Of a DNA stretch of 64,000 bases, positions 38,564 through 56,841 are shown piece by piece. Position numbers and translations under genes: made by a program. The notes under the pieces are model-generated. The model did no database searches, was not told the DNA's origin, and worked only from the letters and a program-made list of their open reading frames with translations. The stretch comes from a phage: assembly GCA_020857175.1 (NCBI GenBank), contig GCA_020857175.1_3048.1. One strand, given 5' to 3'. Position 1 is the stretch's first letter. Every line of letters begins with the position of its first letter.

Positions 38564-38590
38564 CACTTATCCTCGTTTGGTTTCGGGAAT

Positions 38591-38616: not shown

Positions 38617-38632
38617 AAGGCCCGAAGGCCTT

Positions 38633-38893: not shown

Positions 38894-38898
38894 AATTT

Positions 38899-39270
38899 TC
38901 ACTTAAATTTAATGGCTTGAAGAAGACTAATAATTCTCAAACGGCTTCTTTCATCTTTAACTGTAAAAGAAAGAGGGTCGCCAGATTTCATAGTAATAGT
39001 GCATTCAAAATCAAAGTTTTCTGTAACTTCTTCAAAGAAGTCAAATTCTTCATCATAAATTAGAACACTACTTTGCATACTATGAAGAGTTTTTCCATCA
39101 TTTCCAGTTGCTGTACCAATCATCGTAACATTACGACCTTTCATATCTTCAACGATAAATTCGCTTGTCGATATTACAACATTAATAGAACTATTTCTAT
39201 GAATAGCAGAAAATAGAAATTTCTTTTCTTCACCTTCACGAATACGATATTTCTTACCGATTTTAAACAT
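38899..39270 (-). CDS. hypothetical protein, 123 aa
   Basis: ATG start; no recognisable motif. Confidence 0.5.
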   Translation of the reverse strand: MFKIGKKYRIREGEEKKFLFSAIHRNSSINVVISTSEFIVEDMKGRNVTMIGTATGNDGKTLHSMQSSVLIYDEEFDFFEEVTENFDFECTITMKSGDPLSFTVKDERSRLRIISLLQAIKFK

Positions 39271-39272
39271 AA

Positions 39273-39449
39273 TTACCCTTTAAGTAAGTCGTAAAAACCA
39301 CCATTTACATGCTTAGGAGCAGAAGGCCGACGAGTAGACAAACGATGACATTTAGGGCAAACATCATTTTCTCGTTCAGAAATCTTTTTAATTTTTTCAT
39401 ATTCATGCCTACAGTCTTTAGATTGGCATTTATAATCATACATTGGCAT
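39273..39449 (-). CDS. small zinc-ribbon protein, 58 aa
   Basis: Manual translation MPMYDYKCQSKDCRHEYEK...CPKCHRL with two CxxC pairs; below track cutoff. Confidence 0.45.
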   Translation of the reverse strand: MPMYDYKCQSKDCRHEYEKIKKISERENDVCPKCHRLSTRRPSAPKHVNGGFYDLLKG

Positions 39450-39451
39450 AA

Positions 39452-39883
39452 TTATTCCTTAAAATGAGCTTTCAGCATCTGATACAAAGACCATGCTTGT
39501 TCATTATTTTCAATAGTAACTTTCATGACTGGGAATTCTGTGAAATCTTCTATTTGTTCTTGCTCTTTCTCTTTCTCTTCCTGCTCTTGCTCTTCAGCTG
39601 CCTGATATGGATTTTCCACTTCATCAAAGAACACAGCTTCACTCGTTGAAAGCCAGATAAAATCTTCATCCAAAATATCTTTACCAGAAGATAACGCCAA
39701 TTTTCCACTAGATGTCACAAGTTTAGTAGGACGACCAAGATAGTCAATATCTGTAACTCTAAAAGGTTCCATACCAAGACGTCGTGCATAAATTCCGTTT
39801 TCGGTATGGTCCTTGATAAAATCTTCTTGTGCTTGTTTATTTTTAAATTGATACCATTTATTAACTTCAAATTTAATAGCCAT
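39452..39883 (-). CDS. hypothetical acidic protein, 143 aa
   Basis: ATG start; E/Q-rich linker. Confidence 0.5.
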
Positions 39884-40098
39884 TAATAAGTTTCCTTCCA
39901 GTAAGTTGTGCCATCTTCAGTAATTTCACGAAATACACCGTAAATTGGTTGTTTATCACCAACCTTTTCATACACATAAACCGAAGTCAAGTGAGTAAAC
40001 TTAACGGTATGTTCTTTTTGAACTACTACCAAATCTGGATCGAATAATACATCTTCAAATTCGTCATTAGTGCAATTCTGAACAATTTTACGTTTCAT
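39883..40098 (-). CDS. hypothetical protein, 71 aa
   Basis: ATG start; stop/start overlap. Confidence 0.45.
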
Positions 40099-40111
40099 TA
40101 CAATTTCCTCA

Positions 40112-40381
40112 TTAATTGAACAGTGGAGCGATGCGTTTCAGAAGAGTAGCAGCACCTTTAGCGAATTTTACATCATGAAAAACAGTTTCTTCTTCCGTTA
40201 CAACACGAGCTTTAATGTTTTCACAATCCCAATTTTTGCGAACAATCTTCAAAAGCTGCAGTAAATCTTTACATTCAACAATATCGATAACACATCCACG
40301 AGAATCTTCCATTATCGCACGATAACCGTAAGCCATACCATAATCGTTGAAAGATTGCTCGATGATAATTAAGTTTTCCAT
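40112..40381 (-). CDS. hypothetical protein, ~89 aa
   Basis: ATG at 40381 with GGAGAA SD; track start is TTG. Confidence 0.45.
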   Translation of the reverse strand: MENLIIIEQSFNDYGMAYGYRAIMEDSRGCVIDIVECKDLLQLLKIVRKNWDCENIKARVVTEEETVFHDVKFAKGAATLLKRIAPLFN

Positions 40382-40488
40382 TTTATTCTCCAAGTTGTTT
40401 TCTGTATCAGTAGTTGATATTGATATAGTACCATAATCAACTACTGATGTATATAGTTTTATGAAAAAATTTTAAACTTTATGCAAAT

Positions 40489-40908
40489 TTATGCTAAAGC
40501 TGCTTCGCACCATTTTTTAATTTGGAATTCAGGAACGACCATGAACTGGCCTGCAAAAACAATATTGTAGAGCTTGACACCATCTTCTACCCAACGGTCC
40601 GAAATAAAACCAGCGACTTGATTCGTTGTCCATGGAGTTCCATCTGTTGCCGCCGCAATTGTGAATTTATGGTCTTTTACAACTAAAACTGAAGAACAAA
40701 GTTTCCATTTAAATGCGCTTTCTTCTGGCTCAATGAACTGACTTGAGACATAACCAATGTTACCATCAGCGTCACGAACTTTAACCTCGTTACGACCAAA
40801 AACTGGATCACTTACAGAAAGAACTTCAACCAGCTTTCCTGCAACTTTAGAACGAGAAGCAACGGATACATATACGTAATCACCAGTAGAGAGATTTACA
40901 ATATTCAT
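40489..40908 (-). CDS. hypothetical protein, paralog family copy A, 139 aa
   Basis: Shares SRSK(V/A)AG(K/R)LVEV and (I/F)(S/T)DRWVEDG..LYNIVF.G.F.VV motifs with the adjacent 157-aa ORF. Confidence 0.55.
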   Translation of the reverse strand: MNIVNLSTGDYVYVSVASRSKVAGKLVEVLSVSDPVFGRNEVKVRDADGNIGYVSSQFIEPEESAFKWKLCSSVLVVKDHKFTIAAATDGTPWTTNQVAGFISDRWVEDGVKLYNIVFAGQFMVVPEFQIKKWCEAALA

Positions 40909-40917
40909 AATAATTCC

Positions 40918-41391
40918 TTAAGCTTTACGAGGAGAAGCATAACGAGTGATTTCAGATTCTTCAACAACCCGGAAGTCACCTAAGAATACGATATTGTAGA
41001 GATTTTCACCATCTTCAACCCATCGGTCTGTGATGAAGCCGCACATCCTATCAGTTTTACTTGGACCAGCGAAATCATCAATATAATCGAATTCTTCATC
41101 AGTTACAAATTCAACGCCTTTACACAACGCCCATTTAAATTGTGCATTAGACTCAGTGGATTCAACTTCTTCAACAGAAGCAAAATGAGAGCTAACACGA
41201 GTTTCCAGAAATTTAGGACTTACGTAAGCGTACTGAGTTTCAGTTTTTCCAGAACTAGGAATGATTCGAACTTTAACTTCTTTAACACGACCAGTACCAT
41301 TAGTACGAAGTCCTACCACTTCAACTAGACGACCTGCAGCTTTAGAACGAGATGCAGACGATACACGCTTAATTTCACCGATAGTAATCAT
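40918..41391 (-). CDS. hypothetical protein, paralog family copy B, 157 aa
   Basis: Same motifs as copy A; ATG start. Confidence 0.55.
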   Translation of the reverse strand: MITIGEIKRVSSASRSKAAGRLVEVVGLRTNGTGRVKEVKVRIIPSSGKTETQYAYVSPKFLETRVSSHFASVEEVESTESNAQFKWALCKGVEFVTDEEFDYIDDFAGPSKTDRMCGFITDRWVEDGENLYNIVFLGDFRVVEESEITRYASPRKA

Positions 41392-41467
41392 AATTTTTCT
41401 CTCTTTGTTGTTAAGATTTATACTCCCTCCGCAGGACCATTATACTCTGGCCCCAAGAGTTTGTAAA

Positions 41468-41659
41468 CTAGCTTACACGAACATTAATCACTGCGCTGCG
41501 AGGAACTACAGAGTACTCTCCAGCATGAACTACGTTCAGAAGTTCAACACCATCTTCAATCCACTGATCAGTCACCCATCCACCCACAGGATTCGCGAAT
41601 GGACGATGAATATAAACTTGCCTTACACAGCAGATCAGTTGGATCTTCAGGTTTTTCAA
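41468..41659 (-). pseudogene. truncated third copy of the paralog family (C-terminal motif only)
   Basis: Encodes ...GGWVTDQWIEDGVELLNVVHAGEYSVVP, matching only the C-terminal motif of copies A/B; overlaps another ORF. Confidence 0.35.
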
Positions 41660-41906
41660 TTTCTGTCAATAGACTAAAATCTTTTTCATAAATAATAAGC
41701 GGTGATACCATTCCATAATAGTTTCTAATTTCAATATACATCATACCGATAAGAATTCCGCTATTAACACTAATAACAGTAAAAGGATATCCACCAGTTA
41801 AACCAAGAAGTTCACAAAACTTATTATGAGCTATATTAGACAGTACCGAAAAATTCTTAATTTCATCAAATTTTTTCAATTGATAAACAGCATTATTTTT
41901 AATCAT
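41568..41906 (-). CDS. hypothetical protein, 112 aa
   Basis: ATG start; 3' end overlaps the decayed paralog remnant. Confidence 0.45.
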   Translation of the reverse strand: MIKNNAVYQLKKFDEIKNFSVLSNIAHNKFCELLGLTGGYPFTVISVNSGILIGMMYIEIRNYYGMVSPLIIYEKDFSLLTEIEKPEDPTDLLCKASLYSSSIRESCGWMGD

Positions 41907-41916
41907 AATTTTCTCT

Positions 41917-42429
41917 TTAATCTAAGGTAATAAAGCCTTTTAATTCGGCATGCGATTTGCGAAACATTACTTGATGCCCACCAATGATAACTTGATCATC
42001 TGGAACTTCATAAATCGCAATGTACATTCCACGATCTTTTAAGTCTTCACGCTCTTCTCGGGTGAACCATCTCATCATATCATATTCACTAGCGAAAGCA
42101 AAATGATATAATGAAATAAGCCACAATGGAATATAATTTTCAAATTGTGAATAATCTTTATTCCATTTAGTTTTAATAGTATCATTAGCATTTTCAACTA
42201 ATAACTTATCATCGTGTGGAATAGGAATACTTTCATGGCTTTCATAATTATCGCTATGATGATGAAATGACGATGAATTAATACCGCAAAATTTTAGCCA
42301 AGTTCGAGTTTTCATAGAATCAAACCCACGATAAGGAGTTGATTGAACGCATAACTCTTGCCTAATTTTCACTATACCACTATCATCATTTAATGCGCTA
42401 AACGATGATTCAACACGATAAATTTTCAT
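41917..42429 (-). CDS. hypothetical protein, ~170 aa
   Basis: ATG at 42429 with GAGGATAA SD downstream of the 42457..42486 promoter; longer track ORF starts upstream of promoter. Confidence 0.5.
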   Translation of the reverse strand: MKIYRVESSFSALNDDSGIVKIRQELCVQSTPYRGFDSMKTRTWLKFCGINSSSFHHHSDNYESHESIPIPHDDKLLVENANDTIKTKWNKDYSQFENYIPLWLISLYHFAFASEYDMMRWFTREEREDLKDRGMYIAIYEVPDDQVIIGGHQVMFRKSHAELKGFITLD

Positions 42430-42456
42430 TTTATTATCCTCAGTAGCTATGGTGTT

Positions 42457-42486
42457 ATAGTACCACAACTAACCGAGGAAGTAAAC
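42457..42486 (-). promoter_or_regulatory. T4-type early promoter
   Basis: Minus strand GTTTAC (42486..42481), 18-nt spacer, TGGTACTAT (42462..42457). Confidence 0.5.
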
Positions 42487-42492
42487 AACTTT

Positions 42493-43176
42493 TTATCGTT
42501 TTGTTGGAAGAGACAAAGGATCGCACTCTTCCTCTGACGGAGCATCTTCAAGACCCATAGCATATCGCAAAGCATACTTCATCATCAGGATGTCTTTCGC
42601 ACAGTCATGAATAGAATCATGCGCAACGAATCCATCTAAAGTTCCTTTTGGAAGAGGACACGTGGTCATATCACGAACAAGGAGAAGTGCTTCAATTCTG
42701 GTACGAATATCACGCTGATTCCAAAATTTACAAGGTTCTAACTTAAATGTATCAAGCTCATTCTCGGAAACGCCGTTAAGACGTTGAATATCGCGAATGA
42801 GATCGACTAAAATTGGAAAATCAAACGACATTCCACGGCACCAGCCTTGAGATTTCCAAGGATCGATATTATGCGCATTGATGTAATCATTAAATTTTGC
42901 AATACCATCGATAGTGCTTACATCTTCATCTGATGGCGCAATATTTTTTCGAGCTTCAGGAGATTGATTCTTCCACCATTCGATAGTGCTTTTAGTAAAA
43001 AGACGATGTCCTTTTTGGCTTTTTAAATCAAATTTGATTTTAATGCCACGTGAAACTAATTCATCAAATGTTTCAACGACTTCTGGATTAGGGTCAAAAG
43101 CAATTACAGCCAAATCAATAACAGCTGCTTTTTCACCGCTTCCCATTGTTTCAAAATCTATAATAAAATCAAACAT
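42493..43176 (-). CDS. dexA: exonuclease A (DnaQ-like 3'-5' exonuclease), 227 aa
   Basis: N-terminal FDFIIDFETMG (DEDD exo I motif); 227 aa as T4 DexA. Confidence 0.85.
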   Translation of the reverse strand: MFDFIIDFETMGSGEKAAVIDLAVIAFDPNPEVVETFDELVSRGIKIKFDLKSQKGHRLFTKSTIEWWKNQSPEARKNIAPSDEDVSTIDGIAKFNDYINAHNIDPWKSQGWCRGMSFDFPILVDLIRDIQRLNGVSENELDTFKLEPCKFWNQRDIRTRIEALLLVRDMTTCPLPKGTLDGFVAHDSIHDCAKDILMMKYALRYAMGLEDAPSEEECDPLSLPTKR

Positions 43177-43418
43177 TAAATTTTCCTTGCTAAATCGCGA
43201 ATTTGACCTACAGTATAATCTTGGATATAAACTTTATTAATAGGCTCATCAATAAATTTTGCCATAGATTCAATATCTTTTTGTATCTCTTCAAGACTGT
43301 ATACTATCTTTAAAGCTTTTTCGCGAATAGTAATATTTTCAGGACTAGAATTTTCCTCAATGACAGCTTTAACATTTGTCATAAGAGATTTAAACTGATG
43401 CAAACTTAATTCAATCAT
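43176..43418 (-). CDS. hypothetical protein, ~80 aa (dexA.1-like)
   Basis: ATG at 43418 with AAGGCGG SD; track start is GTG; shares LEEI..D(I/L)...DY..G(Q/E)I pattern with next ORF. Confidence 0.45.
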   Translation of the reverse strand: MIELSLHQFKSLMTNVKAVIEENSSPENITIREKALKIVYSLEEIQKDIESMAKFIDEPINKVYIQDYTVGQIRDLARKI

Positions 43419-43671
43419 TAATAACCGCCTTATAAAGATGGCTAATTTCACCTAAAACATAATCACTGATTGTGATAGTTTTCACTTCACCACAAAAGAA
43501 TTCTAACGCAATTAAATCTCGTTCAATTTCTTCTAATTGAAGCATTAACTTGCCAGATTCAATTTTTACATTTCTACGATTTTTACTATAAGCTATTTCA
43601 TAAATTTCGCTCACTTTATCTTGAAGCAGATAAAACTGGTCTTTAGTTATTTCCACGAATAGCTTCCTCAA
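43411..43671 (-). CDS. hypothetical protein, ~86 aa (start uncertain)
   Basis: Only TTG/GTG starts available; paralogous to previous ORF. Confidence 0.4.
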   Translation of the reverse strand: MRKLFVEITKDQFYLLQDKVSEIYEIAYSKNRRNVKIESGKLMLQLEEIERDLIALEFFCGEVKTITISDYVLGEISHLYKAVIND

Positions 43672-43903
43672 ATTTAATTAGTAATTTACAGACACTTTCA
43701 TCTAGTGTAATTACCGTATCTGTATTACTGTGATATGATTGTTTTTCAATTCGTTTAATTGCTAATATAGTATCACTTATAAGATAAAGCTTATGAAGGA
43801 GCTCAGCTCCTGTTACCATAACATCGAGATTATCTTGCTTATTAGTATGCTTCCTTATACCATCTATTAGACGATTTAAATATTTTGAATTGATGTTAAT
43901 CAT
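43643..43903 (-). CDS. hypothetical protein, 86 aa
   Basis: ATG start immediately downstream of dda. Confidence 0.45.
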   Translation of the reverse strand: MININSKYLNRLIDGIRKHTNKQDNLDVMVTGAELLHKLYLISDTILAIKRIEKQSYHSNTDTVITLDESVCKLLIKFEEAIRGNN

Positions 43904-43909
43904 ATAGCC

Positions 43910-45229
43910 TCACACATAAAACACATCATAACGACCACGTGTTACACCAACGTAAAGAAGTTGTTGAGCTAATTCAGCATCTGCATAATGAATACAAGGC
44001 GTATAAATGAAAGCACGGTCTACAGACATACCCTGAGCTTTATGGAATGTTGATGCAGGAAGTGCTTTCACTTTACTGAACTGTGATTTAGCATCCCAAA
44101 AATCACTCCATGGAGCTTTTCCGCCTTTGTTCCAATTTTTATAAGTTTCTGCCGTTTTACCTAAAAATAGGTTAAACTTATATAGCTCTTCATCAGATGA
44201 AATTATTTTAATCTTTTCACGATAATATTCATCATCGCCATAAGTTTCTACTGTTAAATCCCAATGACGAATTAAGTATTCTCCAGGAACACCACGAGCT
44301 TTAACAAATGATGATGTATACTCTGCTTCTATAATACGAACTAATTGTCCGTTATTAAAAATAATTTCTGACACAGGCTTTCCATCAATTTTATATGTTT
44401 TAATTAATGGTTCCTGCATTACAATAATTTCACCGACAATAAAATCTTTATCAGTTTCAAAAATCTTTTTACGAATAATGCTATTTAACTTGTCAACAGA
44501 TTTATTCGTAAATGCCATTACGCGATTTTCAAACAAATCATCTAGTGATTTGACGATTGAAAAATAATTTACCATAAAATCACGTAAAGCTGCATCACCA
44601 GTAAATCCACGTACTCCATGCCCGTCAACAACTTTATCATAAATCCACTTACCGTTGCGAACATCAGTAGCTACATCAATAATAGGAGCATTACTGCGTT
44701 TAACTTCAGTAAGTTCACACTGATAAAAATCTTTGTGTGTAAAGAATGGACTGATATAAGCAGTATTTTCTCCTGGATCAACAGGTCTAATTTGCTTATT
44801 ATCACCTATTCCAATTATAGTACACCAAGGTGGAATAGTTGAAAGCAGAATTTTAAATAGCTTTCTATCATACATTGACACTTCGTCGCAGATTAATACC
44901 CTGCATTTAGCTAAATCTGGTACTTCCTTCTGTTCAAAAAGAACGTTTTCTTCATACGTAACTGGGTTAATTTTAAGAATACTGTGAATAGTACTCGCTT
45001 CTTTCCCCGACAGTTTTGAAAGAATCTTTTTAGCTGCATGTGTAGGAGCTGCCAAAATGATACCAGTTTCGCCTGTTGATATTAAAGCTTCAATGATGAA
45101 CTTAGTAAGAGTAGTCTTACCAGTACCAGCAGGTCCATTAATAGTTACATGATGTTTCTTTTCTTTAATAGCCCTCATAACGATGTTAAAGGCATTTTTC
45201 TGGCCTTCGGTCAAATCATCAAATGTCAT
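43910..45229 (-). CDS. dda: Dda SF1B DNA helicase, 439 aa
   Basis: Walker A GPAGTGKTT, DEVSM Walker B; 439 aa as T4 Dda. Confidence 0.95.
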   Translation of the reverse strand: MTFDDLTEGQKNAFNIVMRAIKEKKHHVTINGPAGTGKTTLTKFIIEALISTGETGIILAAPTHAAKKILSKLSGKEASTIHSILKINPVTYEENVLFEQKEVPDLAKCRVLICDEVSMYDRKLFKILLSTIPPWCTIIGIGDNKQIRPVDPGENTAYISPFFTHKDFYQCELTEVKRSNAPIIDVATDVRNGKWIYDKVVDGHGVRGFTGDAALRDFMVNYFSIVKSLDDLFENRVMAFTNKSVDKLNSIIRKKIFETDKDFIVGEIIVMQEPLIKTYKIDGKPVSEIIFNNGQLVRIIEAEYTSSFVKARGVPGEYLIRHWDLTVETYGDDEYYREKIKIISSDEELYKFNLFLGKTAETYKNWNKGGKAPWSDFWDAKSQFSKVKALPASTFHKAQGMSVDRAFIYTPCIHYADAELAQQLLYVGVTRGRYDVFYV

Positions 45230-45537
45230 CGTAAATTCCCTGCAATTGGTATACTAACAATACGCCCAGTATCTAAAATTCGCTGATATAATCTTTGTGT
45301 GTCTACGTCAGGCTTAACATGTTTAACTTCTATTTTATTAAACCAAAACTTGCGTGGAGTTTCAACTAATCTTGGAATTCCCTTACCTAAAGCTAATCGA
45401 TACTGCTCTTTAAGAGTAGTAAATACTTTATCAGCAATATTCCATTCAAAAAATACAGCAGGACGATGTTCATCAAGCGGAACTGGCGCCGTAAATCCGT
45501 CTTTGTCTCGGTAAACTATCGCATATACATAAACCAT
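45226..45537 (-). CDS. hypothetical protein, 103 aa (dda.1-like)
   Basis: ATG start; stop overlaps dda start. Confidence 0.5.
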   Translation of the reverse strand: MVYVYAIVYRDKDGFTAPVPLDEHRPAVFFEWNIADKVFTTLKEQYRLALGKGIPRLVETPRKFWFNKIEVKHVKPDVDTQRLYQRILDTGRIVSIPIAGNLR

Positions 45538-45538
45538 A

Positions 45539-46285
45539 TTATCCTCGGATAAGTTTAAAAATTGAACAATTTAGCGGATATCCTCTTTTCAGTTTAAGTT
45601 TATCAATAAAAGACAAGTTTTGATACCGCTCTACACCTTGAATAATTTTATCACACATATCATATTGCATTTCTGCCTCTGACAACTTTTTCACAATTTT
45701 CCAATCCGAGCCTTTAAGAAGAACGTTCAATTTAACAACTTCAGCGCCTTCTGCTATGTGAGAACCATCAATACGAGCTTTAAGTGCTATAATCCTTAGC
45801 TTAATGTCAGAGGTCTGTTTTGATTTAGAAAGCTGAGAAATGTGTTCAATTCGGTTTTCACGTTTTTTCTGTATAGCTTTAATTTGATTATAAGTCTTTT
45901 TGATTTTAGCCCATTTCTTTTCATCTAAATTTAGTTTATGAACTTTTTTCGCAGATGAACGACCAATTCGCAAAGCAAATAAATCACGCTTTTCAATCAA
46001 CTCCTCTAAAGTATAATCAGAACGAAATGTATTATACTTTTTCTTTACTGCAATAACATTCCCTTTAATGTATCCAACGTTATTATCAAAACGTTCTAAT
46101 GATAATTTCTCTCCTTCAATACGATTATCAAAAGGTTCTCCTGAATAGGCACAAACTTTTTGTTCTAAAATATTCTTAATATAATTGAAGTCTAAGTTAA
46201 AATCTTTAGAACGTCTTTTTGCAGATGCCTGAGTATGCTCTAGACGACGTTTAATTTTACGAATTTGGTTATTAGACAGCTTCAT
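45539..46285 (-). CDS. Srd-like protein (positional equivalent of T4 srd), 248 aa, with degenerate HNH-like N-terminal motif
   Basis: Position between dda.1 and modA; N-terminus CAYSGEPF...LSLERFDNNVGYIKGNVIAV resembles small HNH endonuclease motifs but lacks the zinc-binding Cys pairs. Confidence 0.5.
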   Translation of the reverse strand: MKLSNNQIRKIKRRLEHTQASAKRRSKDFNLDFNYIKNILEQKVCAYSGEPFDNRIEGEKLSLERFDNNVGYIKGNVIAVKKKYNTFRSDYTLEELIEKRDLFALRIGRSSAKKVHKLNLDEKKWAKIKKTYNQIKAIQKKRENRIEHISQLSKSKQTSDIKLRIIALKARIDGSHIAEGAEVVKLNVLLKGSDWKIVKKLSEAEMQYDMCDKIIQGVERYQNLSFIDKLKLKRGYPLNCSIFKLIRG

Positions 46286-46408
46286 ATTTTTCTCACATCT
46301 TACGGACGGTTAACTACTTATACTATAACATTTTTACCTTAACTTGTAAACAACTTTATGTAAAAATGCTTTAAAACTTTCATGGTATAATGAATCTAAG
46401 TCCTTCCA

Positions 46409-47011
46409 TTATAGATTAAATCCTTCAAAATCAAGAGTATAGATAGTGTATGTTGAATACTTTTTGTACTCATATCTATCTGCAATTCTAAATACACTTC
46501 CAGCTGGTATCATTACTTCTTGTTCATCTGAAACTAATTCCATATTACGATAACGATGGCTATCCGGAAACTTAAAGTTTGGATTGTATTCTTTACAACG
46601 TAGAGCTTTTATAGCATACTCCTGGAAATTGAATACCATAGGAGCTTTGAATTCAAAAATAACTTGTGTGTTATACTCTAAACCGGAAGCAAAATGTAGA
46701 GCTATATTTTTATCATATGAAGCTGATACGACTTTATCAAATGTAATAATATCAATTCCTTGATTTAATACTTGCTTAGTCTCAGCTGGAACACCTCTCC
46801 AAAGAGGTTTATCGTTTGGTTCCAAACGAGATTTGATTATTTCATTTAACCAAGTATGGTCATCTGGTTTATTAGTAATACAATGAATTAAAAGTTCAAT
46901 TTCAGATAAATTAAACCCTTCAGAAAGTAATTCTTCACGAATAGAAGCACGCACCGATGCATCCATTGATTTTATTTTAAAATCTTTTAGTTGCATTACT
47001 GAGTATTTCAT
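46409..47011 (-). CDS. modA: ADP-ribosyltransferase ModA, 200 aa
   Basis: R (LWRG), S-x-S (SAS), E-x-E (EQEVMIP) ART signature; 200 aa as T4 ModA. Confidence 0.8.
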   Translation of the reverse strand: MKYSVMQLKDFKIKSMDASVRASIREELLSEGFNLSEIELLIHCITNKPDDHTWLNEIIKSRLEPNDKPLWRGVPAETKQVLNQGIDIITFDKVVSASYDKNIALHFASGLEYNTQVIFEFKAPMVFNFQEYAIKALRCKEYNPNFKFPDSHRYRNMELVSDEQEVMIPAGSVFRIADRYEYKKYSTYTIYTLDFEGFNL

Positions 47012-47630
47012 TCAACTACCTCAATATCATAAACTTTAAATGTTCCAAATGAATCGTGTAATTTTTCTTTTGAAATAGAAGTTATTCTATACTTTCCAAT
47101 TGGAATCATCCATTCTTGTTCACGCACAATCATCATTAAGTTATCAGTACGCTCTGAATCTAGCCCATCAGTATCTTCATACGTGTACTTAAACTCAGTA
47201 TTAGGAGAAGAAAGTATAATATCGCTGATATGGTCAGAATAATTAAAAGCTTTATCAGTTTTTAAGCGAAATATTATTTCAGTGAAATACTCAACATAAG
47301 AAAAACCACATGCTGTGTGCAAACTAGTAGTAAATGAATCTACCCTATTCGTTGAAAACACTTCTCCAACTTGTAAATCTTTAATGAGTTCTTTTGTCGA
47401 TTTTGATATACCACGATATAACTGATAAGGTGATTTAGTTAAATGCTTTTTAACGATTTTATTCAACTGCCGATGAAGAGCTTCATTCTTTTTAGCTTCC
47501 ATACATTGCCAAAGAATTGACTGCTCAAAGTCAGTAAATTTTTCACAGACTTTTTATACATATCATATTGAAAATCAACGCTTTCAGCTTTTATAGATAA
47601 CTGTTCAACATCTGCAAGATTAATAATCAT
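47008..47630 (-). pseudogene. modB: ADP-ribosyltransferase ModB, reading frame interrupted by apparent single-base deletion near 47499
   Basis: SD-preceded ATG at 47630 opens a 52-codon frame; the ART-domain ORF (47008..47502; YRG, STS, EQEWMIP) is in another frame with no SD; restoring one G at tgg|gaa gives 207 aa, the T4 ModB length. Confidence 0.5.
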
Positions 47631-47656
47631 GATAGCCTCCGTATACTTCAGAAGCT

Positions 47657-47686
47657 ATCATATCATCGTTAGAAAGGAAAGTAAAC
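47657..47686 (-). promoter_or_regulatory. T4-type early promoter upstream of modB
   Basis: Minus strand GTTTAC (47686..47681), 18-nt spacer, TATGAT (47662..47657). Confidence 0.45.
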
Positions 47687-47697
47687 AACTTTTTGAA

Positions 47698-47880
47698 TTA
47701 TTTTGCCCAGGGAGCCCAAGGCGGAGGGTCAAGATGGTATGAAGCTAGTTCTTCTAGAAGAGCATCTGGGGCTTCAATTCCATAATTCTGTAATACTATA
47801 CGGTACTCTTTCTTATAATCACTAGAATCATTCTGGTTATTCGTAGAATGATTATCTTCTAACATCTCAAATAAATCCAT
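47698..47880 (-). CDS. hypothetical protein, 60 aa
   Basis: ATG start; Pro/Trp-rich C-terminus. Confidence 0.4.
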   Translation of the reverse strand: MDLFEMLEDNHSTNNQNDSSDYKKEYRIVLQNYGIEAPDALLEELASYHLDPPPWAPWAK

Positions 47881-47888
47881 ATTAATTC

Positions 47889-48360
47889 CTAGCGATAAAA
47901 ACCAAATTGACGATTAGTTTCAATAATCTTTCTTTCTTCTTCGGACATTCTCCAACGTAGTCCAACATCAAAATGAGCCCAGACCATCTTAACAAATGCA
48001 TTTATATCTTTAATATCTTCAATAATGAATGTTTTACTTTTAGAAGGTTGACTCACTAATTTAACTTTATCATCTTCAAACAGGTCAAAAAGACCATATT
48101 CATGAGCTCTTTTATAGCCTTTAATAGTTAAAGCTTCAGAAGAAGAAAACGGTGAATCTGTATTCTGCAAAATATCTTCAGTATGCTTTATAATTAGAAT
48201 AACATTTTCTGGATATTTTCTTTCTTTTATATCTTTAATTAAAAAATCCGGATTTTCTGCTAAAGGAATAATTAATGAGCATTTTTTTACCAAGAGTATT
48301 TACTGATTTACCTTCTTTAGACATGAATTCTACTGAATAATGTTTTGCTACTTCAATCAT
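47889..48360 (-). pseudogene. hypothetical gene (~158 codons) interrupted by frameshift at an A7 tract (plus-strand T7 at 48282..48288)
   Basis: ATG at 48360 opens a frame ([12 protein letters not shown]...GKK) that terminates shortly after the homopolymer; the long downstream frame (KKCSLIIPLAENPDF...) has only a TTG start. Confidence 0.4.
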
Positions 48361-48517
48361 GTGATTTCCTTTTGCCTACTAATGGACCATCGGGAATTTT
48401 GTTTTCCTGGATATATTTCTCATTTTCTTCCATCATTTTACTGCCAATTTTAAGAAGCAAATCCAGTGCTTCATTTGCTTTTGCTTTAGCCTCTTCTAAC
48501 GTTATATCTTTGTTCAT
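48353..48517 (-). CDS. hypothetical protein, 54 aa
   Basis: Manual translation [23 protein letters not shown]...; ATGA overlap with upstream stop. Confidence 0.4.
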
Positions 48518-48717
48518 GATTTATCACCATAGATGTCTCTCATCAATTTAAGCGCTGAGCGTTCTAATTTCTTTTCTTTCTCAGCACTAATCATTGATTT
48601 CATCCATTCTTCCGATTCGTTCTGCATTTCTTTATTTGCTTGTTCAACCCAACCATCATCAATATACATTGAGTTTGGTCTATTGAACCATTCAAGAATC
48701 TTCTTGGGAGCTTTCAT
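48514..48717 (-). CDS. hypothetical protein, 67 aa
   Basis: ATG start; charged, coiled-coil-like. Confidence 0.45.
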
Positions 48718-49177
48718 TTATTTTACCTAAAACAATAGTAGGAGCATCGTCAAATTTATGAATTTTTAGTAAATTTGGATTTAACTTATTCCATAAAGAG
48801 GTAATAAAATATGATAGCGCACTTTCGTCCGTAATTATAAATTTATTTCCTTTATCTATTTTCCAATCATATATTGAATCATATGAATAGAAGGATAACG
48901 GTTTATTATTATAATATGCTTCACTAACATCAATATAGTTAGATTTAGTAAATGCTTGAATTGCCATAAATGGAGAATTTTGTACAGTTTCAATAATTCC
49001 GATCTTTTTAAGTTTTATTTCAACATCTTCTGGAATTGGCATTGAAATAAAATCTTCTACTAGATACATGTTATTGTCATATCTTTTATCAATCATTACT
49101 GCTACAGTAATTGGAACATCTTTAGCAAACGACATGCTATTACTGCTAATATACATTTCAAACAAAATCGCTTCCAT
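48692..49177 (-). CDS. hypothetical protein, ~161 aa
   Basis: ATG at 49177 with GAGGAAAA SD; track start is TTG. Confidence 0.45.
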
Positions 49178-49185
49178 AATTTTCC

Positions 49186-49527
49186 TCAATCGCAAGATGT
49201 AGATGAACAACCAGAATCACAAGAACTTCCACATGAATCGCCCATCCATACATGAACAGGAACATTAGTATCATATGAATCAGAACTAGACTGTGTATTC
49301 TGTGCATTAGATGATGTAGTAGGTACTGACCAGCGCCAAGGATTTTTATAATATTCTTGGGCTTCTTCATAAGTCATAGTAACTGCTTCTACTGTTCCAT
49401 CTCCCATATAAACATACTCAACTACAGTTAAAGGAAGGTAGTCATTTGAAATAGGAACTACACCTTCTCCAGGAGCTGTAGAGAAAAAATCCGTAAAGAA
49501 ACTTTTAAACCAATTAAAGATAAACAT
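49186..49527 (-). CDS. hypothetical protein with hydrophobic N-terminus and Cys/Ser-rich C-terminus, 113 aa
   Basis: [15 protein letters not shown]... and C-terminal [17 protein letters not shown]. Confidence 0.45.
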
Positions 49528-49733
49528 TACAAAAAGCCTCTTTTGAATTCGACTTGCTTTTCACCATAATCATATCGAATCTCTGCATTAAATTCGACAG
49601 AACCATCTGCGTACATCATAAATGAATGCACAACAACTTCTGTAGACCATGGTTGCAATTCATATTTCTTCATTACATGTCGTGAAATGATAATATCTAA
49701 ATCTTCATTCGGTTTAATCCAACGATTTAACAT
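49527..49733 (-). CDS. hypothetical protein, 68 aa
   Basis: ATG with GAGGAGAG SD downstream of the 49760..49789 promoter. Confidence 0.5.
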   Translation of the reverse strand: MLNRWIKPNEDLDIIISRHVMKKYELQPWSTEVVVHSFMMYADGSVEFNAEIRYDYGEKQVEFKRGFL

Positions 49734-49759
49734 AGTGCTCTCCTCTATAAGATAATTCT

Positions 49760-49789
49760 ATTATACCATACTCATTTTGGAAAGTAAAC
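49760..49789 (-). promoter_or_regulatory. T4-type early promoter
   Basis: Minus strand GTTTAC (49789..49784), 18-nt spacer, TGGTATAAT (49765..49760). Confidence 0.5.
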
Positions 49790-49828
49790 CATTTAAATGA
49801 AAAAGGACTCCCGAAGGAGTCCTTGAAT

Positions 49829-50074
49829 TTATTCACCAGTTACTTTCCACAAATCTTCATTTGCAGCAATCCATTCAGTACGTTGATTTTCTTCATATAC
49901 TGTAGAATATGCTGCTTTTTCTGAAGGGAATGTCTGATAATGAGCACCAGAAATTTTGTGAACGTCAGAATAAAGAGGGAAAGCTACAGAAATTTCCTTT
50001 CCTTCAATTTTCTTATTTCCATCTAATTTCTGCTCAAATGTTTTAATATTAACATAACCGCGAGTACTAGCCAT
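49829..50074 (-). CDS. soc: small outer capsid protein Soc, 80 aa
   Basis: MASTRGYVNIKTFEQKLDGNKKIEGKEISVAFPLYSDVHKISGAHYQTF... matches T4 Soc. Confidence 0.9.
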   Translation of the reverse strand: MASTRGYVNIKTFEQKLDGNKKIEGKEISVAFPLYSDVHKISGAHYQTFPSEKAAYSTVYEENQRTEWIAANEDLWKVTGE

Positions 50075-50104
50075 GTAATTCTCCTTTTATTTAAATTACA
50101 TGAT

Positions 50105-50112
50105 TATTTATA
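50105..50112 (-). promoter_or_regulatory. T4 late promoter (TATAAATA) for soc
   Basis: Minus strand TATAAATA about 30 nt upstream of soc ATG. Confidence 0.5.
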
Positions 50113-50782
50113 CATCTTCTTTTCTGAATAAGTAAATTAAATTCTTAAGAGCTGAACTTGTTACATCATATTTTCCTTTAAGCGCCTTTACAACCGGGCC
50201 TGTTGCTGGTTTACCTAAAGAAACCCATAACTCATGTATTTCGCTTTTAAGCGGTTCATGCCAATGCGGCGCTTTTCTTTGCGCCCTTGAAGTTCCTTCT
50301 GAAATCTTTTTATTTCCGCCATTCGAATAAAACTTTTTCATTACTTCAGATTGCCGAGCTTTTCGTTCTGCTCTATTTTGGGCTATACGTTGTGAATTCT
50401 TCATCCGAGTTTTTGTTTCAGGATTGTTTAATCTAAGTTTATGTTCTAATCGTTGTTGCTCAGTCCATTTTCTTCCTTCTCCACCCTGACCACCAGGAGA
50501 AATATTAATGCAAGTATCTGGGTGTTTACGTTTTAATGCAGATATTAGCTCGCGTTCAACTTCATATGATTTTTCTCTAGAACCATGGCATTTTGACCAA
50601 CGTATTTTATAATTAAAACCATACTTACGATATATGTTCCATAGTATTTTGCCTGACCCCGGATATTTATCATCATATGGATTTACAATAAATGATTCAT
50701 GTTTCCCAGCGTACCAAAAGACGCCTTTCGGCGTCCTAACTTTTACGATATATGTTCTATAAAATTTTTGTTTAATACCCAT
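50108..50782 (-). mobile_element. segF: SegF-like GIY-YIG homing endonuclease gene, ~224 aa
   Basis: From ATG 50782: MGIKQKFYRTYIVKVRTPKGVFWYAGKH (GIY-x10-YIG-like), basic C-terminal region; lies between 56 and soc where T4 carries segF; overlaps gene 56 3' end. Confidence 0.6.
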
Positions 50783-51287
50783 TATCTTGACGTTCAAAAT
50801 TATGTTTATTTTTCAAATAATAAAGTTTAAAGATTTCTTCCGCATTCATTCCAAGGCCAGCAAACATATTTAATACGAAATGAAATATATCCACAAGCTC
50901 AAATTTAATTTCGAGCTGATCTTCTGGGGACATTTCATCAATGCGTTTTTCTTGCGCTTCAATATAACGTGCTTTCCATTTTTTCCAAACTGCCGATGCA
51001 TCTTTTTCACCACGTGACATTTCACCAAGAGAAGTCAGAAGTTCGCGGAATTCATCATCAATACAGTCTTTTTGTTCACGCATCCAAGAAACAACATCAC
51101 CGGCAGTTTCTAATTTATCTGGATGATAACAGTATTCGCGGTCATTTGCTAAACGAATCTGCAGAGATTTCTGCATGTCAAGCATTACCTGCAGCGGGTC
51201 TTTTTCATCACCGAGAATATCCCAGTATTCATTTTGAGCTTTATCAGCGCCTTCGATCAGTTGACTACATTCGTTAAAGTAAGCCAT
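50772..51287 (-). CDS. 56: dCTP/dCDP pyrophosphatase gp56, 171 aa
   Basis: From ATG 51287: MAYFNECSQLIEGADKAQNEYWDILGDEKDPLQVMLDMQ... matches T4 gp56; track start is TTG. Confidence 0.85.
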   Translation of the reverse strand: MAYFNECSQLIEGADKAQNEYWDILGDEKDPLQVMLDMQKSLQIRLANDREYCYHPDKLETAGDVVSWMREQKDCIDDEFRELLTSLGEMSRGEKDASAVWKKWKARYIEAQEKRIDEMSPEDQLEIKFELVDIFHFVLNMFAGLGMNAEEIFKLYYLKNKHNFERQDNGY

Positions 51288-51347
51288 TATTTTTCCTTTC
51301 AATTCATTAATAAGTTAAATAATTATATCATTTGAGTATGTAAGCAA

Positions 51348-52687
<1,340 letters not shown>

Positions 52688-52712
52688 TATATCATCCTCA
52701 GCAATTTATTTT

Positions 52713-52742
52713 ATAATACCATAACAAGCTGAGAAAGTAAAC
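52713..52742 (-). promoter_or_regulatory. T4-type early promoter driving the 186-aa ORF and dam
   Basis: Minus strand GTTTAC (52742..52737), 18-nt spacer, TGGTATTAT (52718..52713). Confidence 0.45.
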
Positions 52743-52786
52743 AAATTTATGAAATTTGTGATAAATATTAATTTAAAGGAGGACAT

Positions 52787-52987
52787 ATGGCACAAAAATT
52801 AATGGCACTTGTTAATGCCATAAAAGGTAATAAAAAACGTATAGCTTTTACTATTTCTGCTATGGTAGGAATTTTACTCTGGAACTTTATTTTATCACCA
52901 ATTGCAATTGCGCATGGTGTTAATATTCCAGTAGTTACTCTTGATACATTCGTAGATCTAGCATTTGCTTTAGTTGGGTTAATTTAA
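52787..52987 (+). CDS. small two-TM membrane protein, 66 aa, opposite strand to neighbours
   Basis: ATG preceded by AAAGGAGGA SD at ideal spacing; two hydrophobic helices; convergent with gene 61. Confidence 0.45.
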   Translation: MAQKLMALVNAIKGNKKRIAFTISAMVGILLWNFILSPIAIAHGVNIPVVTLDTFVDLAFALVGLI

Positions 52988-54012
52988 ATCTTGGCATATT
53001 TAGATAACCGCATTTTAGCCATTAACCCCTGGGCAATATTATTTTTCATATATTCCATAATTTGTTCAGGGGTTGCACCTTCCTTTCTAATCATATCATT
53101 AACATCTTTTGATTTCCAGGGAGATTTATCCCAAAACATAACCCTTTCTCCTGCATCAACTAATTTAGTCATTCGCTTGATAGTGTCAGGGTGACGAGGC
53201 TCATTATCTAAAACCCACACTCGTCTATCTTTAAATGGAACAACTTCTAGGTCTAATTGACCACCCGTAATAGCTATACCATTTTCAATAAAAAGTGAAT
53301 CTATAGGTCCTTCTAGAACATATACATCACCATCTTTAACTCGTTCGACTCCATATATTTTTGTTGCCTCAGGATAAGCTTTGATGGTGATATATTTTTG
53401 AGGAGCATCTTTCTTTAATGCACGTCCTTGAAAAGACTCAGCTTTTCCATTAGCATTATAAATTGGAATAACAAGACGAGGCTCAGAAATTTCCTTTTTG
53501 TATGTTCCCAGTGCTATGCTATTAACTAATTTAGGCCATTCGGTTGTAAACCAAAGATATTTCCATTTATCCTTTGGAATACAACGAGCTTTTACATATT
53601 TTATAATTGGATGGTCTTCCGCCAGTTTATCTAATCTAACACATGACGGAAGAGATTTAATTATTTTCTTCTCAGGATGTTTAGGAAGTTCTTTAGGTTT
53701 TTCTACTGGGCGACTTTTACCTTTTTCTTTTCTTATTTCAAAGATATACTCACGATATAAATCAGGTTCAAACTCCTTTAAATATATTCCGATTGGCGCA
53801 TGATAGTTACAGTTATAACAATGAATATTTCCTTCATTATTATCACCATAATACCATCCACGCGCTTTATTTTGGTCGGTTTTTGAATCTCCACAAACTG
53901 GGCATCTAAACCGTAATTTAAAAGTTGAACTATTATTTACTTGTGTGAATTTAGGTAAATGAGCTAATGCACGATATGCAAACTCATTATCAATCCAAGC
54001 TATTGATGACAT
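52984..54012 (-). CDS. 61: DNA primase gp61, 342 aa
   Basis: Zinc-ribbon CPVCGDSK...CYNC and Toprim region; 342 aa as T4 gp61. Confidence 0.9.
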   Translation of the reverse strand: MSSIAWIDNEFAYRALAHLPKFTQVNNSSTFKLRFRCPVCGDSKTDQNKARGWYYGDNNEGNIHCYNCNYHAPIGIYLKEFEPDLYREYIFEIRKEKGKSRPVEKPKELPKHPEKKIIKSLPSCVRLDKLAEDHPIIKYVKARCIPKDKWKYLWFTTEWPKLVNSIALGTYKKEISEPRLVIPIYNANGKAESFQGRALKKDAPQKYITIKAYPEATKIYGVERVKDGDVYVLEGPIDSLFIENGIAITGGQLDLEVVPFKDRRVWVLDNEPRHPDTIKRMTKLVDAGERVMFWDKSPWKSKDVNDMIRKEGATPEQIMEYMKNNIAQGLMAKMRLSKYAKI

Positions 54013-54015
54013 TCT

Positions 54016-54180
54016 TTACTCTTCTTTTTCTTTAGATTCCTCTTTTTTCTTTTTAGGAATCTGTTCAGGACCTTTATTTACTACAGCACCTGATGTTGTT
54101 CCAGTAGAGATATTTTCAGGATTACCACCTGAATCTCCAGCAACCATATCTTCTTTAATAAATTCTTTATATGTTTTCAT
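54016..54180 (-). CDS. hypothetical small protein, 54 aa (61.1-like)
   Basis: Manual translation MKTYKEFIKEDMVAGDSGGNPENIS...; immediately upstream of gene 61. Confidence 0.4.
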   Translation of the reverse strand: MKTYKEFIKEDMVAGDSGGNPENISTGTTSGAVVNKGPEQIPKKKKEESKEKEE

Positions 54181-54181
54181 A

Positions 54182-54538
54182 TTAACCTCTATTCATAAAA
54201 GCATTAAAAATTTGGTCATCAATAGATGGAATAGCAACCTTTTCGGCATCATTTAGCAAATCATTAATTTCATCAGATAGCATAACACATGTGCCTTTAT
54301 TTCCTGTAATTGTTACTGCACAATTACGAACGTTTTCTTTATTAAATTTTAGGTTAATATTTTCGTAATGAAAATCCTTTAATGCTGAATATATTTTTAA
54401 AATAAAATTGTCTTTTACTACAATAAACCCAACCTCACTATTAAAACGTGGTTCATGGAAACTGTAATAAACCTTTTCATCTATAAAATCGTATGAAATT
54501 TTTTCCATTTTTAAATATGAAAATTCAGAACTATACAT
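54182..54538 (-). CDS. hypothetical protein, 118 aa
   Basis: ATG start; 61-41 intergenic array. Confidence 0.5.
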   Translation of the reverse strand: MYSSEFSYLKMEKISYDFIDEKVYYSFHEPRFNSEVGFIVVKDNFILKIYSALKDFHYENINLKFNKENVRNCAVTITGNKGTCVMLSDEINDLLNDAEKVAIPSIDDQIFNAFMNRG

Positions 54539-54550
54539 ACTAACCTCTAA

Positions 54551-54844
54551 TTACTCACCTACCACTTCAGCGATGATATTTTTATTATTAAAGTTTTTAT
54601 CGCAATACAGAACATAATTATACTGCATTACACCACCAGATTTAAGTTGTTTTTGCACTTCAGCTTTCATTTCAGGACGATCACGTTCAACGATATTCAT
54701 AATATCCGCTTCAATTTGAATTTCAACTTCAGTCTGATCTGCAGTCATAGACCATTCGCACAAATCTTTGTCATAACCCGCCATAGCAGGCTGAGCAGCG
54801 CAAGAAGATAAAGCAAAAATTGCAGCAAAGATAAATTTTTTCAT
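54551..54844 (-). CDS. sp: periplasmic protein Sp (spackle)-like, 97 aa
   Basis: Signal peptide MKKFIFAAIFALSSCAAQPAMA; 97 aa and location as T4 sp (61.3), from memory. Confidence 0.6.
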   Translation of the reverse strand: MKKFIFAAIFALSSCAAQPAMAGYDKDLCEWSMTADQTEVEIQIEADIMNIVERDRPEMKAEVQKQLKSGGVMQYNYVLYCDKNFNNKNIIAEVVGE

Positions 54845-54904
54845 GATAATCTCCTCAGTAGTTTATGTTTATATAGTATCTCAATTTCCAATAAAAGTAA
54901 ACAG

Positions 54905-55162: not shown

Positions 55163-55163
55163 A

Positions 55164-55346: not shown

Positions 55347-55375
55347 AACAATCTCCTCATTTAACCAACAAGACT

Positions 55376-56832: not shown

Positions 56833-56841
56833 ACTTACTCC

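What the first reader, a model, noticed from the sequence alone, without database searches (positions are those of the whole stretch)
47008..47630. modB reading frame split by an apparent single-base deletion
An SD-preceded ATG at 47630 opens a frame encoding 52 aa (MIINLADVEQ...FFGNVW...). The ADP-ribosyltransferase domain (YRG, STS, EQEWMIP) follows in another frame as a 164-aa ORF with no SD of its own. Restoring one G at tgg|gaa (plus-strand CC run near 47499..47500) gives a continuous 207-aa protein, the length I recall for T4 ModB. So this is either a sequencing error, a genuine modB pseudogene, or frameshift-dependent expression.
Basis: seen in the sequence. Interest (0 to 1): 0.5.

Follow-up and report, generated by a model that had tools for sequence, protein, structure and literature searches.

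The report
Frameshifted modB gene in T4-like phage
This T4-like phage carries a real one-base deletion that breaks its modB ADP-ribosyltransferase gene, an ordinary loss-of-function mutation in a dispensable gene that other T-even phages, including classic phage T2, have also broken.

Summary
The window is a Tequatrovirus. modB (minus strand, 47008..47630) has lost one base in the run at 47550..47556. It reads TAT AAA AAG TCT; the closest relatives read TAT AAA AAA GTC. The proposed tgg|gaa site at 47499/47500 is unchanged in relatives.

Restoring one A gives a 207-aa protein, 197/207 identical to T4 ModB. The catalytic R73, S99 and E171-x-E173 all lie in the downstream frame.

An assembly error is unlikely. 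A shorter, separate Logan contig from run SRR5368307 matches 20,168 bases of the window exactly, lesion included. A different phage, a15 (about 96-97% identical overall), carries the same allele.

modB is broken independently elsewhere:
- NiC89: A6 to A8 in the same run.
- Shinka: +T.
- A Logan contig: loss of one G.
- All seven T2/SV76 records: a 2-nt deletion.

The published T4 ModB-inactive mutant is viable.

Best reading: a replication-slippage null or hypomorphic allele. At most a trickle of native ModB would come from spontaneous -1 slippage on A_AAG. Programmed frameshifting and a functional short ModB are not supported. Low interest.

The parts
47657..47685 (-). Promoter-like site (TTTACT-17-TATGAT, with TG) directly upstream of modB
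   Evidence: Consensus scan. Consensus match only; the Lutter phage record annotates a promoter under this match.
47622..47667 (-). 5' leader hairpin that pairs the modB SD (GGAGG 47640..47636) and ATG (47630..47628) with an arm overlapping the promoter -10
   Evidence: dG -20.8 kcal/mol, z = -5.4, 0 of 200 shuffles as stable. The sequence is invariant in T4, T2, NiC89, a15 and a Logan contig, so there is no covariation to test.
47463..47630 (-). modB 5' ORF: codons 1-27 native (MIINLADVEQLSIKAESVDFQYDMYKK), then 28 out-of-frame codons and TGA; 55 aa
   Evidence: Annotated as a separate 'hypothetical protein' in phage a15.
47550..47556 (-). The lesion: coding strand T-AAAAA-G (A5 at 47555..47551, G at 47550), where the closest relatives have A6-G and T4 has A5-GG. 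One base is lost. After the deletion this is also the only place where a -1 slip (AAG to AAA) restores native ModB.
   Evidence: Alignments; frame analysis (TAA at 47556..47554 closes the -1 frame just upstream).
47008..47553 (-). modB 3' part (residues 27-207) in the -1 frame, carrying R73, S99 and E171-Q-E173. The mechanical ATG-to-stop ORF is 47008..47502 (164 aa, from Met44, no SD).
   Evidence: (phrog_832, E = 3.7e-33).
46409..47011 (-). modA (200 aa), intact. Its ATG overlaps the modB stop (ATGA) and it has its own GAGG.
47889..48360 (-). modA.3 (Mrh paralogue), split by a second homopolymer frameshift (A6 to A7 on the coding strand; + strand T7 at 48282..48288) into 41-aa and 134-aa ORFs
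   Evidence: The A7 allele is in 0 of 474 phage records but is present in the Logan contig.

Best explanation
This is a genuine frameshift allele of the T4-type early gene modB. modB encodes an arginine-specific ADP-ribosyltransferase that also 'RNAylates' ribosomal proteins.

Shown:
- One base of the run AAAAAA-G has been lost. This is the classic replication-slippage lesion at a homopolymer.
- Ribosomes starting at the normal SD/ATG therefore read 27 native codons and 28 wrong ones, then stop at 47463.
- The catalytic part (residues 27-207) sits untranslated in the -1 frame.

Inferred:
- The phage is a ModB null or strong hypomorph.
- The only route to active enzyme is unprogrammed -1 slippage of tRNA-Lys on A_AAG (zero frame UAU AAA AAG UCU). 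That slip would recreate exactly the native 207-aa protein, probably at about a percent or less.
- Initiation at Met44 would give a protein lacking three N-terminal helices, including a motif kept by nearly the whole family, so it is unlikely to be active.
- Because modB is dispensable, such alleles persist and recur in T-even phages.
For: Position and nature of the lesion.

The lesion is real in the DNA:
- A Logan contig of SRA run SRR5368307 (30,142 nt, so not the window's own 64-kb assembly) is 100.000% identical to window 37463..57630, including this lesion.
- Phage a15 has the identical allele. It comes from another laboratory and is about 96-97% identical to the window overall. Its paper describes short-read SKESA assemblies at more than 1000x.
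- A frame-break scan against a15 and ACG-C40 finds no other broken recognised gene in 64 kb, although there are 72 A/T runs of 6 or more.

The site is a hot spot and the gene is expendable:
- NiC89 has A6 to A8 in the same run on a different haplotype.
- Shinka has +T at nt 33.
- An ERR14030477 contig has lost one G at nt 220.
- All 7 T2/SV76 records have a 2-nt deletion at nt 405-406.
- T4 ModB(R73A,G74A) is viable, with a 4-fold smaller burst and a 20-min lysis delay (PMC10468400).

The catalytic residues and the need for the N-terminus:
- R73, G74, S99, Y115, E171 and E173 are invariant in 34 family members.
- The FxDxEQSxLWxC helix (residues 32-43) is kept by nearly all members, including most of the shortest.
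- The AlphaFold2 model has pLDDT 93 and pTM 0.88, with helices at 5-14, 18-31 and 34-42.
- The model matches C3/Iota/VIP2-type ADP-ribosyltransferases.

Leakiness: A_AAG is the minimal -1 shift-prone site in E. coli (PMC5009743). Unprogrammed -1 suppression is about 1% in vivo (PMC10861913).
Against: - No read pile-ups could be inspected, and the platform of SRR5368307 is unknown.
- The Logan contig may be built from the same reads as the window's record. It excludes an assembly slip but not a systematic homopolymer miscall.
- The same genome has a second homopolymer frameshift 730 nt away (modA.3). Together these are 2 of its 3 differences from ACG-C40 over 2.5 kb, a pattern that homopolymer-error-prone chemistry could also produce.
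- The a15 paper's sequencing description is written for its engineered phage batches, not explicitly for the deposited wild type.
- Loss of function is inferred. No expression or activity data exist for this phage.
Confidence: 0.8

Rival explanations
1. Sequencing or consensus error: the phage really has A6 and an intact modB, and the homopolymer was under-called.
For: - The lesion sits in a homopolymer.
- A second homopolymer frameshift (modA.3, A6 to A7) lies 730 nt away in the same genome and is seen in no other record.
- The platform of SRR5368307 is unknown.
- Two assemblies of the same reads would share a systematic error.
Against: - The identical allele is present in phage a15 from a different laboratory, assembled from deep short reads.
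- The k-mer-based Logan contig is identical to the window over 20,168 bases, which argues for accurate reads.
- None of the other 70 or so A/T runs of 6 or more breaks a recognised gene.
- Two random run errors would lie within 735 nt of each other only about 3% of the time.
- Independent modB frameshifts at other, non-homopolymer sites exist in other phages.
Confidence: 0.1
2. Adaptive 'savior indel' or frameshift-dependent expression: the deletion is selected because it throttles a toxic or defence-triggering enzyme. Low-level -1 slippage on A_AAG would supply just enough native ModB.
For: - The downstream frame is -1, and the slip AAG to AAA on UAU AAA AAG recreates exactly the native protein.
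- A_AAG is the most shift-prone tetranucleotide in E. coli, and savior indels are documented in herpesvirus TK.
- Overexpressed ModB is lethal to the cell (PMC3014915).
- The run is hit in three phages (the window, a15 and NiC89), and modB is broken at least five independent times.
Against: - The configuration is rare: 1 of 398 records has the A5 allele, and 58 of a spread sample of 60 have the intact 624-nt gene.
- The heptamer is U_AAA_AAG, not X_XXY_YYZ.
- There is no SD-like stimulator upstream. The only downstream hairpin overlaps the slip site itself and is weak (z = -2.05).
- The T2, Shinka and ERR14030477 lesions are not at slippery sites, so plain loss explains the pattern.
- ModB inactivation costs burst size in T4.
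Confidence: 0.07
3. A shorter ModB started at the internal ATG (47502, Met44) is made and is functional, so the gene is effectively intact.
For: - The 164-aa ORF is open and contains R73, S99 and E171-x-E173.
- The upstream ORF ends 37 nt downstream of that ATG, so post-termination re-initiation is conceivable. This is inference from established knowledge of bacterial re-initiation.
Against: - There is no SD before Met44.
- A nearer in-frame ATG of the dead frame (…KRMKLFIGS*) competes for re-initiation.
- Met44 lies after helices 5-14, 18-31 and 34-42 of a confident model.
- Residues 32-43 (FxDxEQSxLWxC) are kept by nearly all of 34 family members, including most of the naturally short ones, and several are conserved between the ModA and ModB paralogues.
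- Relatives encode the full 207 aa.
Confidence: 0.03

Closest known systems
Bacteriophage T4 ModB (NP_049636, 207 aa; Pfam PF26816 Mod_ADP_RT)
   Same: - Same locus, between modA.2 and modA, with the modB stop overlapping the modA start.
- Same leader hairpin and SD.
- The restored product is 197/207 identical.
- R73, G74, S99 and E171-Q-E173 are present.
   Different: The reading frame is broken after codon 27 by loss of one base, so the enzyme as encoded cannot be made by standard decoding.
modB of Escherichia phage a15 (OQ067373.1; one of the four WT phages deposited for SNIPR001)
   Same: Identical 623-nt modB with the same A5 allele, annotated there as two CDS.
   Different: - a15 is a different phage, about 96-97% identical over the window.
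- Its modA.3 is intact.
- In the flanks the window is closer to ACG-C40 than to a15. The shared allele may therefore be recurrent or recombined in, rather than inherited with the genome.
modB of phage T2 / SV76 (e.g. LC348380, AP018813)
   Same: A naturally frameshifted modB in a well-growing T-even phage. It is annotated as a 142-aa ModB plus a 42-aa hypothetical protein.
   Different: The lesion differs: a 2-nt CA deletion at nt 405-406, not in a homopolymer. It keeps R73 and S99 but loses E171-x-E173.
Savior indels with compensatory frameshifting (herpes simplex thymidine kinase G-run) and dnaX A_AAA_AAG programmed -1 frameshifting
   Same: A homopolymer indel whose effect can be partly reversed by ribosomal slippage on the same run. 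The tRNA-Lys A_AAG slip is the one used by dnaX.
   Different: There is no evidence here of selection for the indel. The site is not a full X_XXY_YYZ heptamer, has no stimulatory SD or structure, and is not conserved.

Membership tests
T4 ModB / Mod_ADP_RT family (PF26816; phrog_832) | Sequence homology to T4 ModB over the full length | tested here: met
   With one A restored, 197/207 residues are identical to T4 ModB. phrog_832 hit at E = 6.5e-42. A 207-aa cluster representative is 96% identical and carries PF26816.
T4 ModB / Mod_ADP_RT family (PF26816; phrog_832) | Conserved genomic position (modA.2 - modB - modA, overlapping stop/start) | tested here: met
   Same gene order as T4, ACG-C40 and a15.
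T4 ModB / Mod_ADP_RT family (PF26816; phrog_832) | Uninterrupted reading frame of about 207 codons | tested here: not met
   The frame is broken after codon 27, giving a 55-aa ORF and a 164-aa ORF. By this test it is a pseudogene or frameshift allele of the family, not a standard member.
R-S-E clade ADP-ribosyltransferases (C3 / Iota / VIP2-like) | Catalytic Arg, Ser(-Thr-Ser-like) and Glu-x-Glu motifs | tested here: met
   R73, S99 and E171-Q-E173 are invariant in a 34-member alignment and are encoded in the 3' frame.
R-S-E clade ADP-ribosyltransferases (C3 / Iota / VIP2-like) | ADP-ribosyltransferase fold | tested here: met
   The AlphaFold2 model of a 96%-identical ModB (pLDDT 93, pTM 0.88) matches Plx2A, Certhrax, Iota Ia, VIP2 and C3. 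Foldseek probability is 1.00, E about 5e-6, TM about 0.5.
R-S-E clade ADP-ribosyltransferases (C3 / Iota / VIP2-like) | NAD-dependent ADP-ribosylation (or RNAylation) activity in infected cells | not testable with these tools
   Needs biochemical assay. Activity is expected to be absent or trace because of the frameshift.
Programmed -1 ribosomal frameshift sites | Slippery heptamer X_XXY_YYZ in the zero frame | tested here: not met
   The zero frame reads U_AAA_AAG. Only the A-site tetramer A_AAG is slippery, and the P-site tRNA would re-pair on UAA.
Programmed -1 ribosomal frameshift sites | Stimulatory element (internal SD upstream, or a structure 5-9 nt downstream) | tested here: inconclusive
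   No GGAGG-like sequence lies upstream. The predicted hairpin includes the slip site itself and is only modestly better than shuffles (z = -2.05, 6 of 200 shuffles as stable).
Programmed -1 ribosomal frameshift sites | Conservation of the two-frame arrangement among relatives | tested here: not met
   The A5 allele is in 1 of 398 matching phage records. In a spread sample, 58 of 60 records have an uninterrupted 624-nt gene.

The most novel reading that the evidence does not exclude
The repeated breaking of modB may be selected rather than neutral. The run at codons 26-27 is hit in three phages (the window, a15 and NiC89), and other sites are hit in T2, Shinka and an ERR14030477 contig. Frameshifting modB might let the phage escape a host response to ModB's ADP-ribosylation/RNAylation, or relieve self-toxicity. 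In the A-run alleles, about 1% -1 slippage on A_AAG would still supply a trickle of native enzyme, making this a phage 'savior indel'.
Probability: 0.08. Interest if true: 0.45.

Novelty: already known. Interest (0 to 1): 0.15.

Why it matters
It matters little for biology at large. This is a routine homopolymer frameshift in a dispensable accessory gene, and the identical allele already sits, undiscussed, in GenBank (phage a15).

Three practical points follow:
- Annotators should call this a modB pseudogene or frameshift allele, not two genes.
- Natural ModB-deficient T-even phages exist. They include a15, which is one of the four wild-type phages the SNIPR001 paper deposited, and apparently every sequenced T2. 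They could serve as ready-made controls for work on ModB-dependent RNAylation.
- They also show that ModB's fitness contribution, measured in T4 on E. coli B, is not universal.

Tried and rejected
- **Pfam-A scan of the ORFs.** It gave no hits, because the local copy appears to lack PF26816. PHROGs was used instead.
- **PDB sequence search.** No solved ModB relative was found.
- **Scans of IMG/VR and JGI metagenomes for the A5 allele.** No matches. This is uninformative, because the A6 allele itself matches only 2 IMG/VR contigs.
- **First AlphaFold2 run with 4 sequences.** Unusable, pLDDT 38. It was repeated with 34 family members.
- **Lead: is the modB lesion in the 'T2 ymfE mutant' a defence-escape mutation?** Rejected. 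All 7 T2/SV76 records share it, and the PinQ/T2 escape paper does not mention modB.
- **Downstream RNA structure as a frameshift stimulator.** Not convincing.
- **Gap list against a15.** It produced about 100 non-triplet gaps. Nearly all were paired alignment artefacts in divergent genes or lay in intergenic runs. Only modA.3 remained as an isolated break in a coding sequence.
- **Literature searches.** Nothing was found for SRR5368307, for a truncated T2 modB, or for modB escape mutants. Tiemann et al. 2004 (PMC523198) is not held.
- **ECML-123-2.** Its modB is unannotated but carries only an in-frame 3-nt deletion, so it is not a frameshift.

Full report
**What is there.** The window is a T4-like phage (Tequatrovirus). 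An 851-nt stretch around the finding matches 521 phage records at 90-99.9% identity. On the minus strand, GGAGG (47640..47636) and an ATG (47630) open a 55-aa ORF that ends at 47463. A 164-aa ORF (47502..47008) follows in another frame and abuts modA (46409..47011). The 164-aa ORF and modA both hit PHROG 832, 'RNA polymerase ADP-ribosylase'. Gene order is that of T4: modA.3, modA.2, modB, modA, srd.

**Where the lesion is.** Aligning the window with the closest intact relative (ACG-C40) and with phage a15 shows a single gap inside a homopolymer. The window reads TAT AAA AAG TCT and ACG-C40 reads TAT AAA AAA GTC. T4 itself reads TAT AAA AAG GTC. One base of AAAAAA-G (or AAAAA-GG) has therefore been lost, at window 47550..47556. 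The nearest haplotypes all have A6, so A6 to A5 is the parsimonious event.
- Restoring one A gives a 207-aa protein that is 197/207 identical to T4 ModB.

**Real mutation or artefact.** Three lines argue for a real mutation.
- The exact 55-aa product is encoded on a Logan contig from SRA run SRR5368307. That contig is 30,142 nt long, so it is not the window's own 64-kb assembly. It is 100.000% identical to window 37463..57630.
- The same allele is in Escherichia phage a15 (OQ067373.1). It is the only one of 398 records matching a 70-nt probe that carries it. a15 is a different phage, about 96-97% identical across the window, and comes from another laboratory. Its paper describes SKESA assemblies of short reads at more than 1000x.
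- A gap list against a15 and a tblastn frame-break scan with all ORFs of a15 and ACG-C40 found only one other broken recognised gene in the 64 kb, although there are 72 A/T runs of 6 or more.

That other break is modA.3, where A6 has become A7 (+ strand T7 at 48282..48288). It lies only 730 nt away, is private to this genome (0 of 474 records), and is also present in the Logan contig.

Caveat. Two random homopolymer errors would fall that close only about 3% of the time. Even so, the pair is the main reason I keep about 10% on a platform-specific miscall. I could not see reads or learn the sequencing platform.

**Shared descent or recurrence.** Over 46149..48669 the window differs from ACG-C40 at only three positions: the modB deletion, one SNP, and the modA.3 insertion. 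It differs from a15 at many more. The allele shared with a15 is therefore not simply inherited with the genome. It either recurred at a hot spot or moved by recombination on a tract of 900 nt or less.

**Consequences for expression.** The 3' part of modB is in the -1 frame relative to the start codon. That frame is closed by TAA (47556..47554) immediately before the run. Standard decoding therefore yields only the 55-aa peptide.
- A -1 slip of tRNA-Lys from AAG to AAA at this one spot would regenerate exactly the native protein.
- A_AAG is the minimal -1 shift-prone sequence in E. coli (PMC5009743).
- Unprogrammed -1 suppression of frameshift mutants runs at about 1% in vivo (PMC10861913).
- The site is U_AAA_AAG rather than X_XXY_YYZ, and no internal SD lies upstream.
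- The only downstream hairpin includes the slip site and is weak (z = -2.05).

I therefore infer a trickle of native ModB, not programmed frameshifting.

**Could a short ModB from Met44 work?**
- Met44 has no SD.
- A 34-member family alignment, including homologues at 23-38% identity, shows R73, G74, S99, Y115, E171 and E173 invariant.
- The motif FxDxEQSxLWxC (ModB residues 32-43) is retained by nearly all members, including most of the naturally short ones. Several N-terminal positions are also shared by the ModA and ModB paralogues.
- An AlphaFold2 model built on that alignment is confident (pLDDT 93, pTM 0.88). It places three helices at 5-14, 18-31 and 34-42.
- The whole model matches C3/Iota/VIP2/Certhrax-type ADP-ribosyltransferases.

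A protein starting at Met44 would lack all three helices. I infer that the 164-aa ORF alone is not a working enzyme.

**Population context.** modB is intact in most relatives: 58 of a spread sample of 60 records have the 624-nt gene. It is nevertheless broken repeatedly and independently.

| Phage or contig | Lesion |
|---|---|
| Window phage and a15 | A6 to A5 in the run at codons 26-27 |
| NiC89 (LC620505, Japan) | A6 to A8 in the same run, on a different haplotype |
| Shinka | +T at nt 33 |
| Logan contig from ERR14030477 | Loss of one G at nt 220 |
| All seven T2/SV76 records | 2-nt deletion at nt 405-406, removing the Glu-x-Glu motif |

That makes at least 10 of about 500 records, which is a lower bound.

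**Published biology.** The literature fits a tolerated loss.
- Engineered T4 ModB(R73A,G74A) is viable, with a 4-fold smaller burst and a 20-min lysis delay (PMC10468400).
- Overexpressed ModB is lethal to the cell (PMC3014915).
- The T4 review cited notes that many early genes lie in genome regions not essential for infecting wild-type E. coli under laboratory conditions.

**Verdict.** This is a genuine replication-slippage frameshift allele (pseudogene or hypomorph) of a known, dispensable gene. The find is ordinary, and the identical allele is already public in a15.

The most novel reading still open is that recurrent modB loss is selected, with A-run alleles acting as leaky 'savior indels'. 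I give this about 8%.

**Limits of this analysis.**
- No read-level data were available.
- The census is incomplete.
- There are no expression or activity data.
- Identity by descent and recurrence could not be distinguished.

Noticed in passing
window 47889..48360 (run at 48282..48288): modA.3 (Mrh paralogue, PF24070/phrog_1234) is split by a +1 insertion, A6 to A7 on the coding strand, into 41-aa and 134-aa ORFs. The allele is in 0 of 474 phage records but is present in the Logan contig of SRR5368307. It is the second homopolymer frameshift within 730 nt of the modB lesion.
   Followed up: partly
L012 (PV958097.1), L015 (LC348380.1); also AP018813, NC_054931, OM339528 (SV76), PV648363, PV648364: Every phage T2/SV76 record carries a 2-nt (CA) deletion at modB nt 405-406. 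The gene is annotated as a 142-aa ModB plus a 42-aa hypothetical protein, and the E171-x-E173 motif is out of frame. T2 therefore looks like a natural ModB-deficient phage. I found no paper in the library noting this.
   Followed up: partly
L016/L018 (LC620505.1, phage NiC89) modB nt 76-83; L014 (MZ502379.1, Shinka) modB nt 33; L017 (Logan ERR14030477 contig) modB nt 220: Three further independent modB frameshifts: A6 to A8 in the same run as the window's lesion, +T in a TT doublet, and loss of one G in CGTGGT at codon 74.
   Followed up: yes
window 47622..47667 (minus strand): A strong leader hairpin (dG -20.8 kcal/mol, z = -5.4) pairs the modB SD and AUG with an arm that overlaps the -10 of the proximal promoter-like site (47685..47657). 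Transcripts from that promoter would lack the 5' arm, leaving the SD free, while read-through transcripts could sequester it. This resembles the control described for some other T4 genes. The sequence is invariant in T4, T2, NiC89 and a15, so there is no covariation to test.
   Followed up: partly
public records under the match (e.g. MT526905, OL310488, MZ502379, LR215724): Many phage records label modA.2 or modA.3 as 'molybdenum ABC transporter, periplasmic molybdenum-binding protein ModA'. This looks like a propagated annotation error caused by confusion with the bacterial gene name modA.
   Followed up: no
L013 (OL631480.1, ECML-123-2): modB there has an in-frame 3-nt deletion (loss of E114) and is left unannotated, although the frame is open.
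   Followed up: partly
window about 54182..54538 (L005 3093..3449): The gene in the position of 61.2/AdfA is 118 aa here, with only a weak AdfA Pfam hit, against 208 aa in a15. It may be a different allele or a truncated gene.
   Followed up: no
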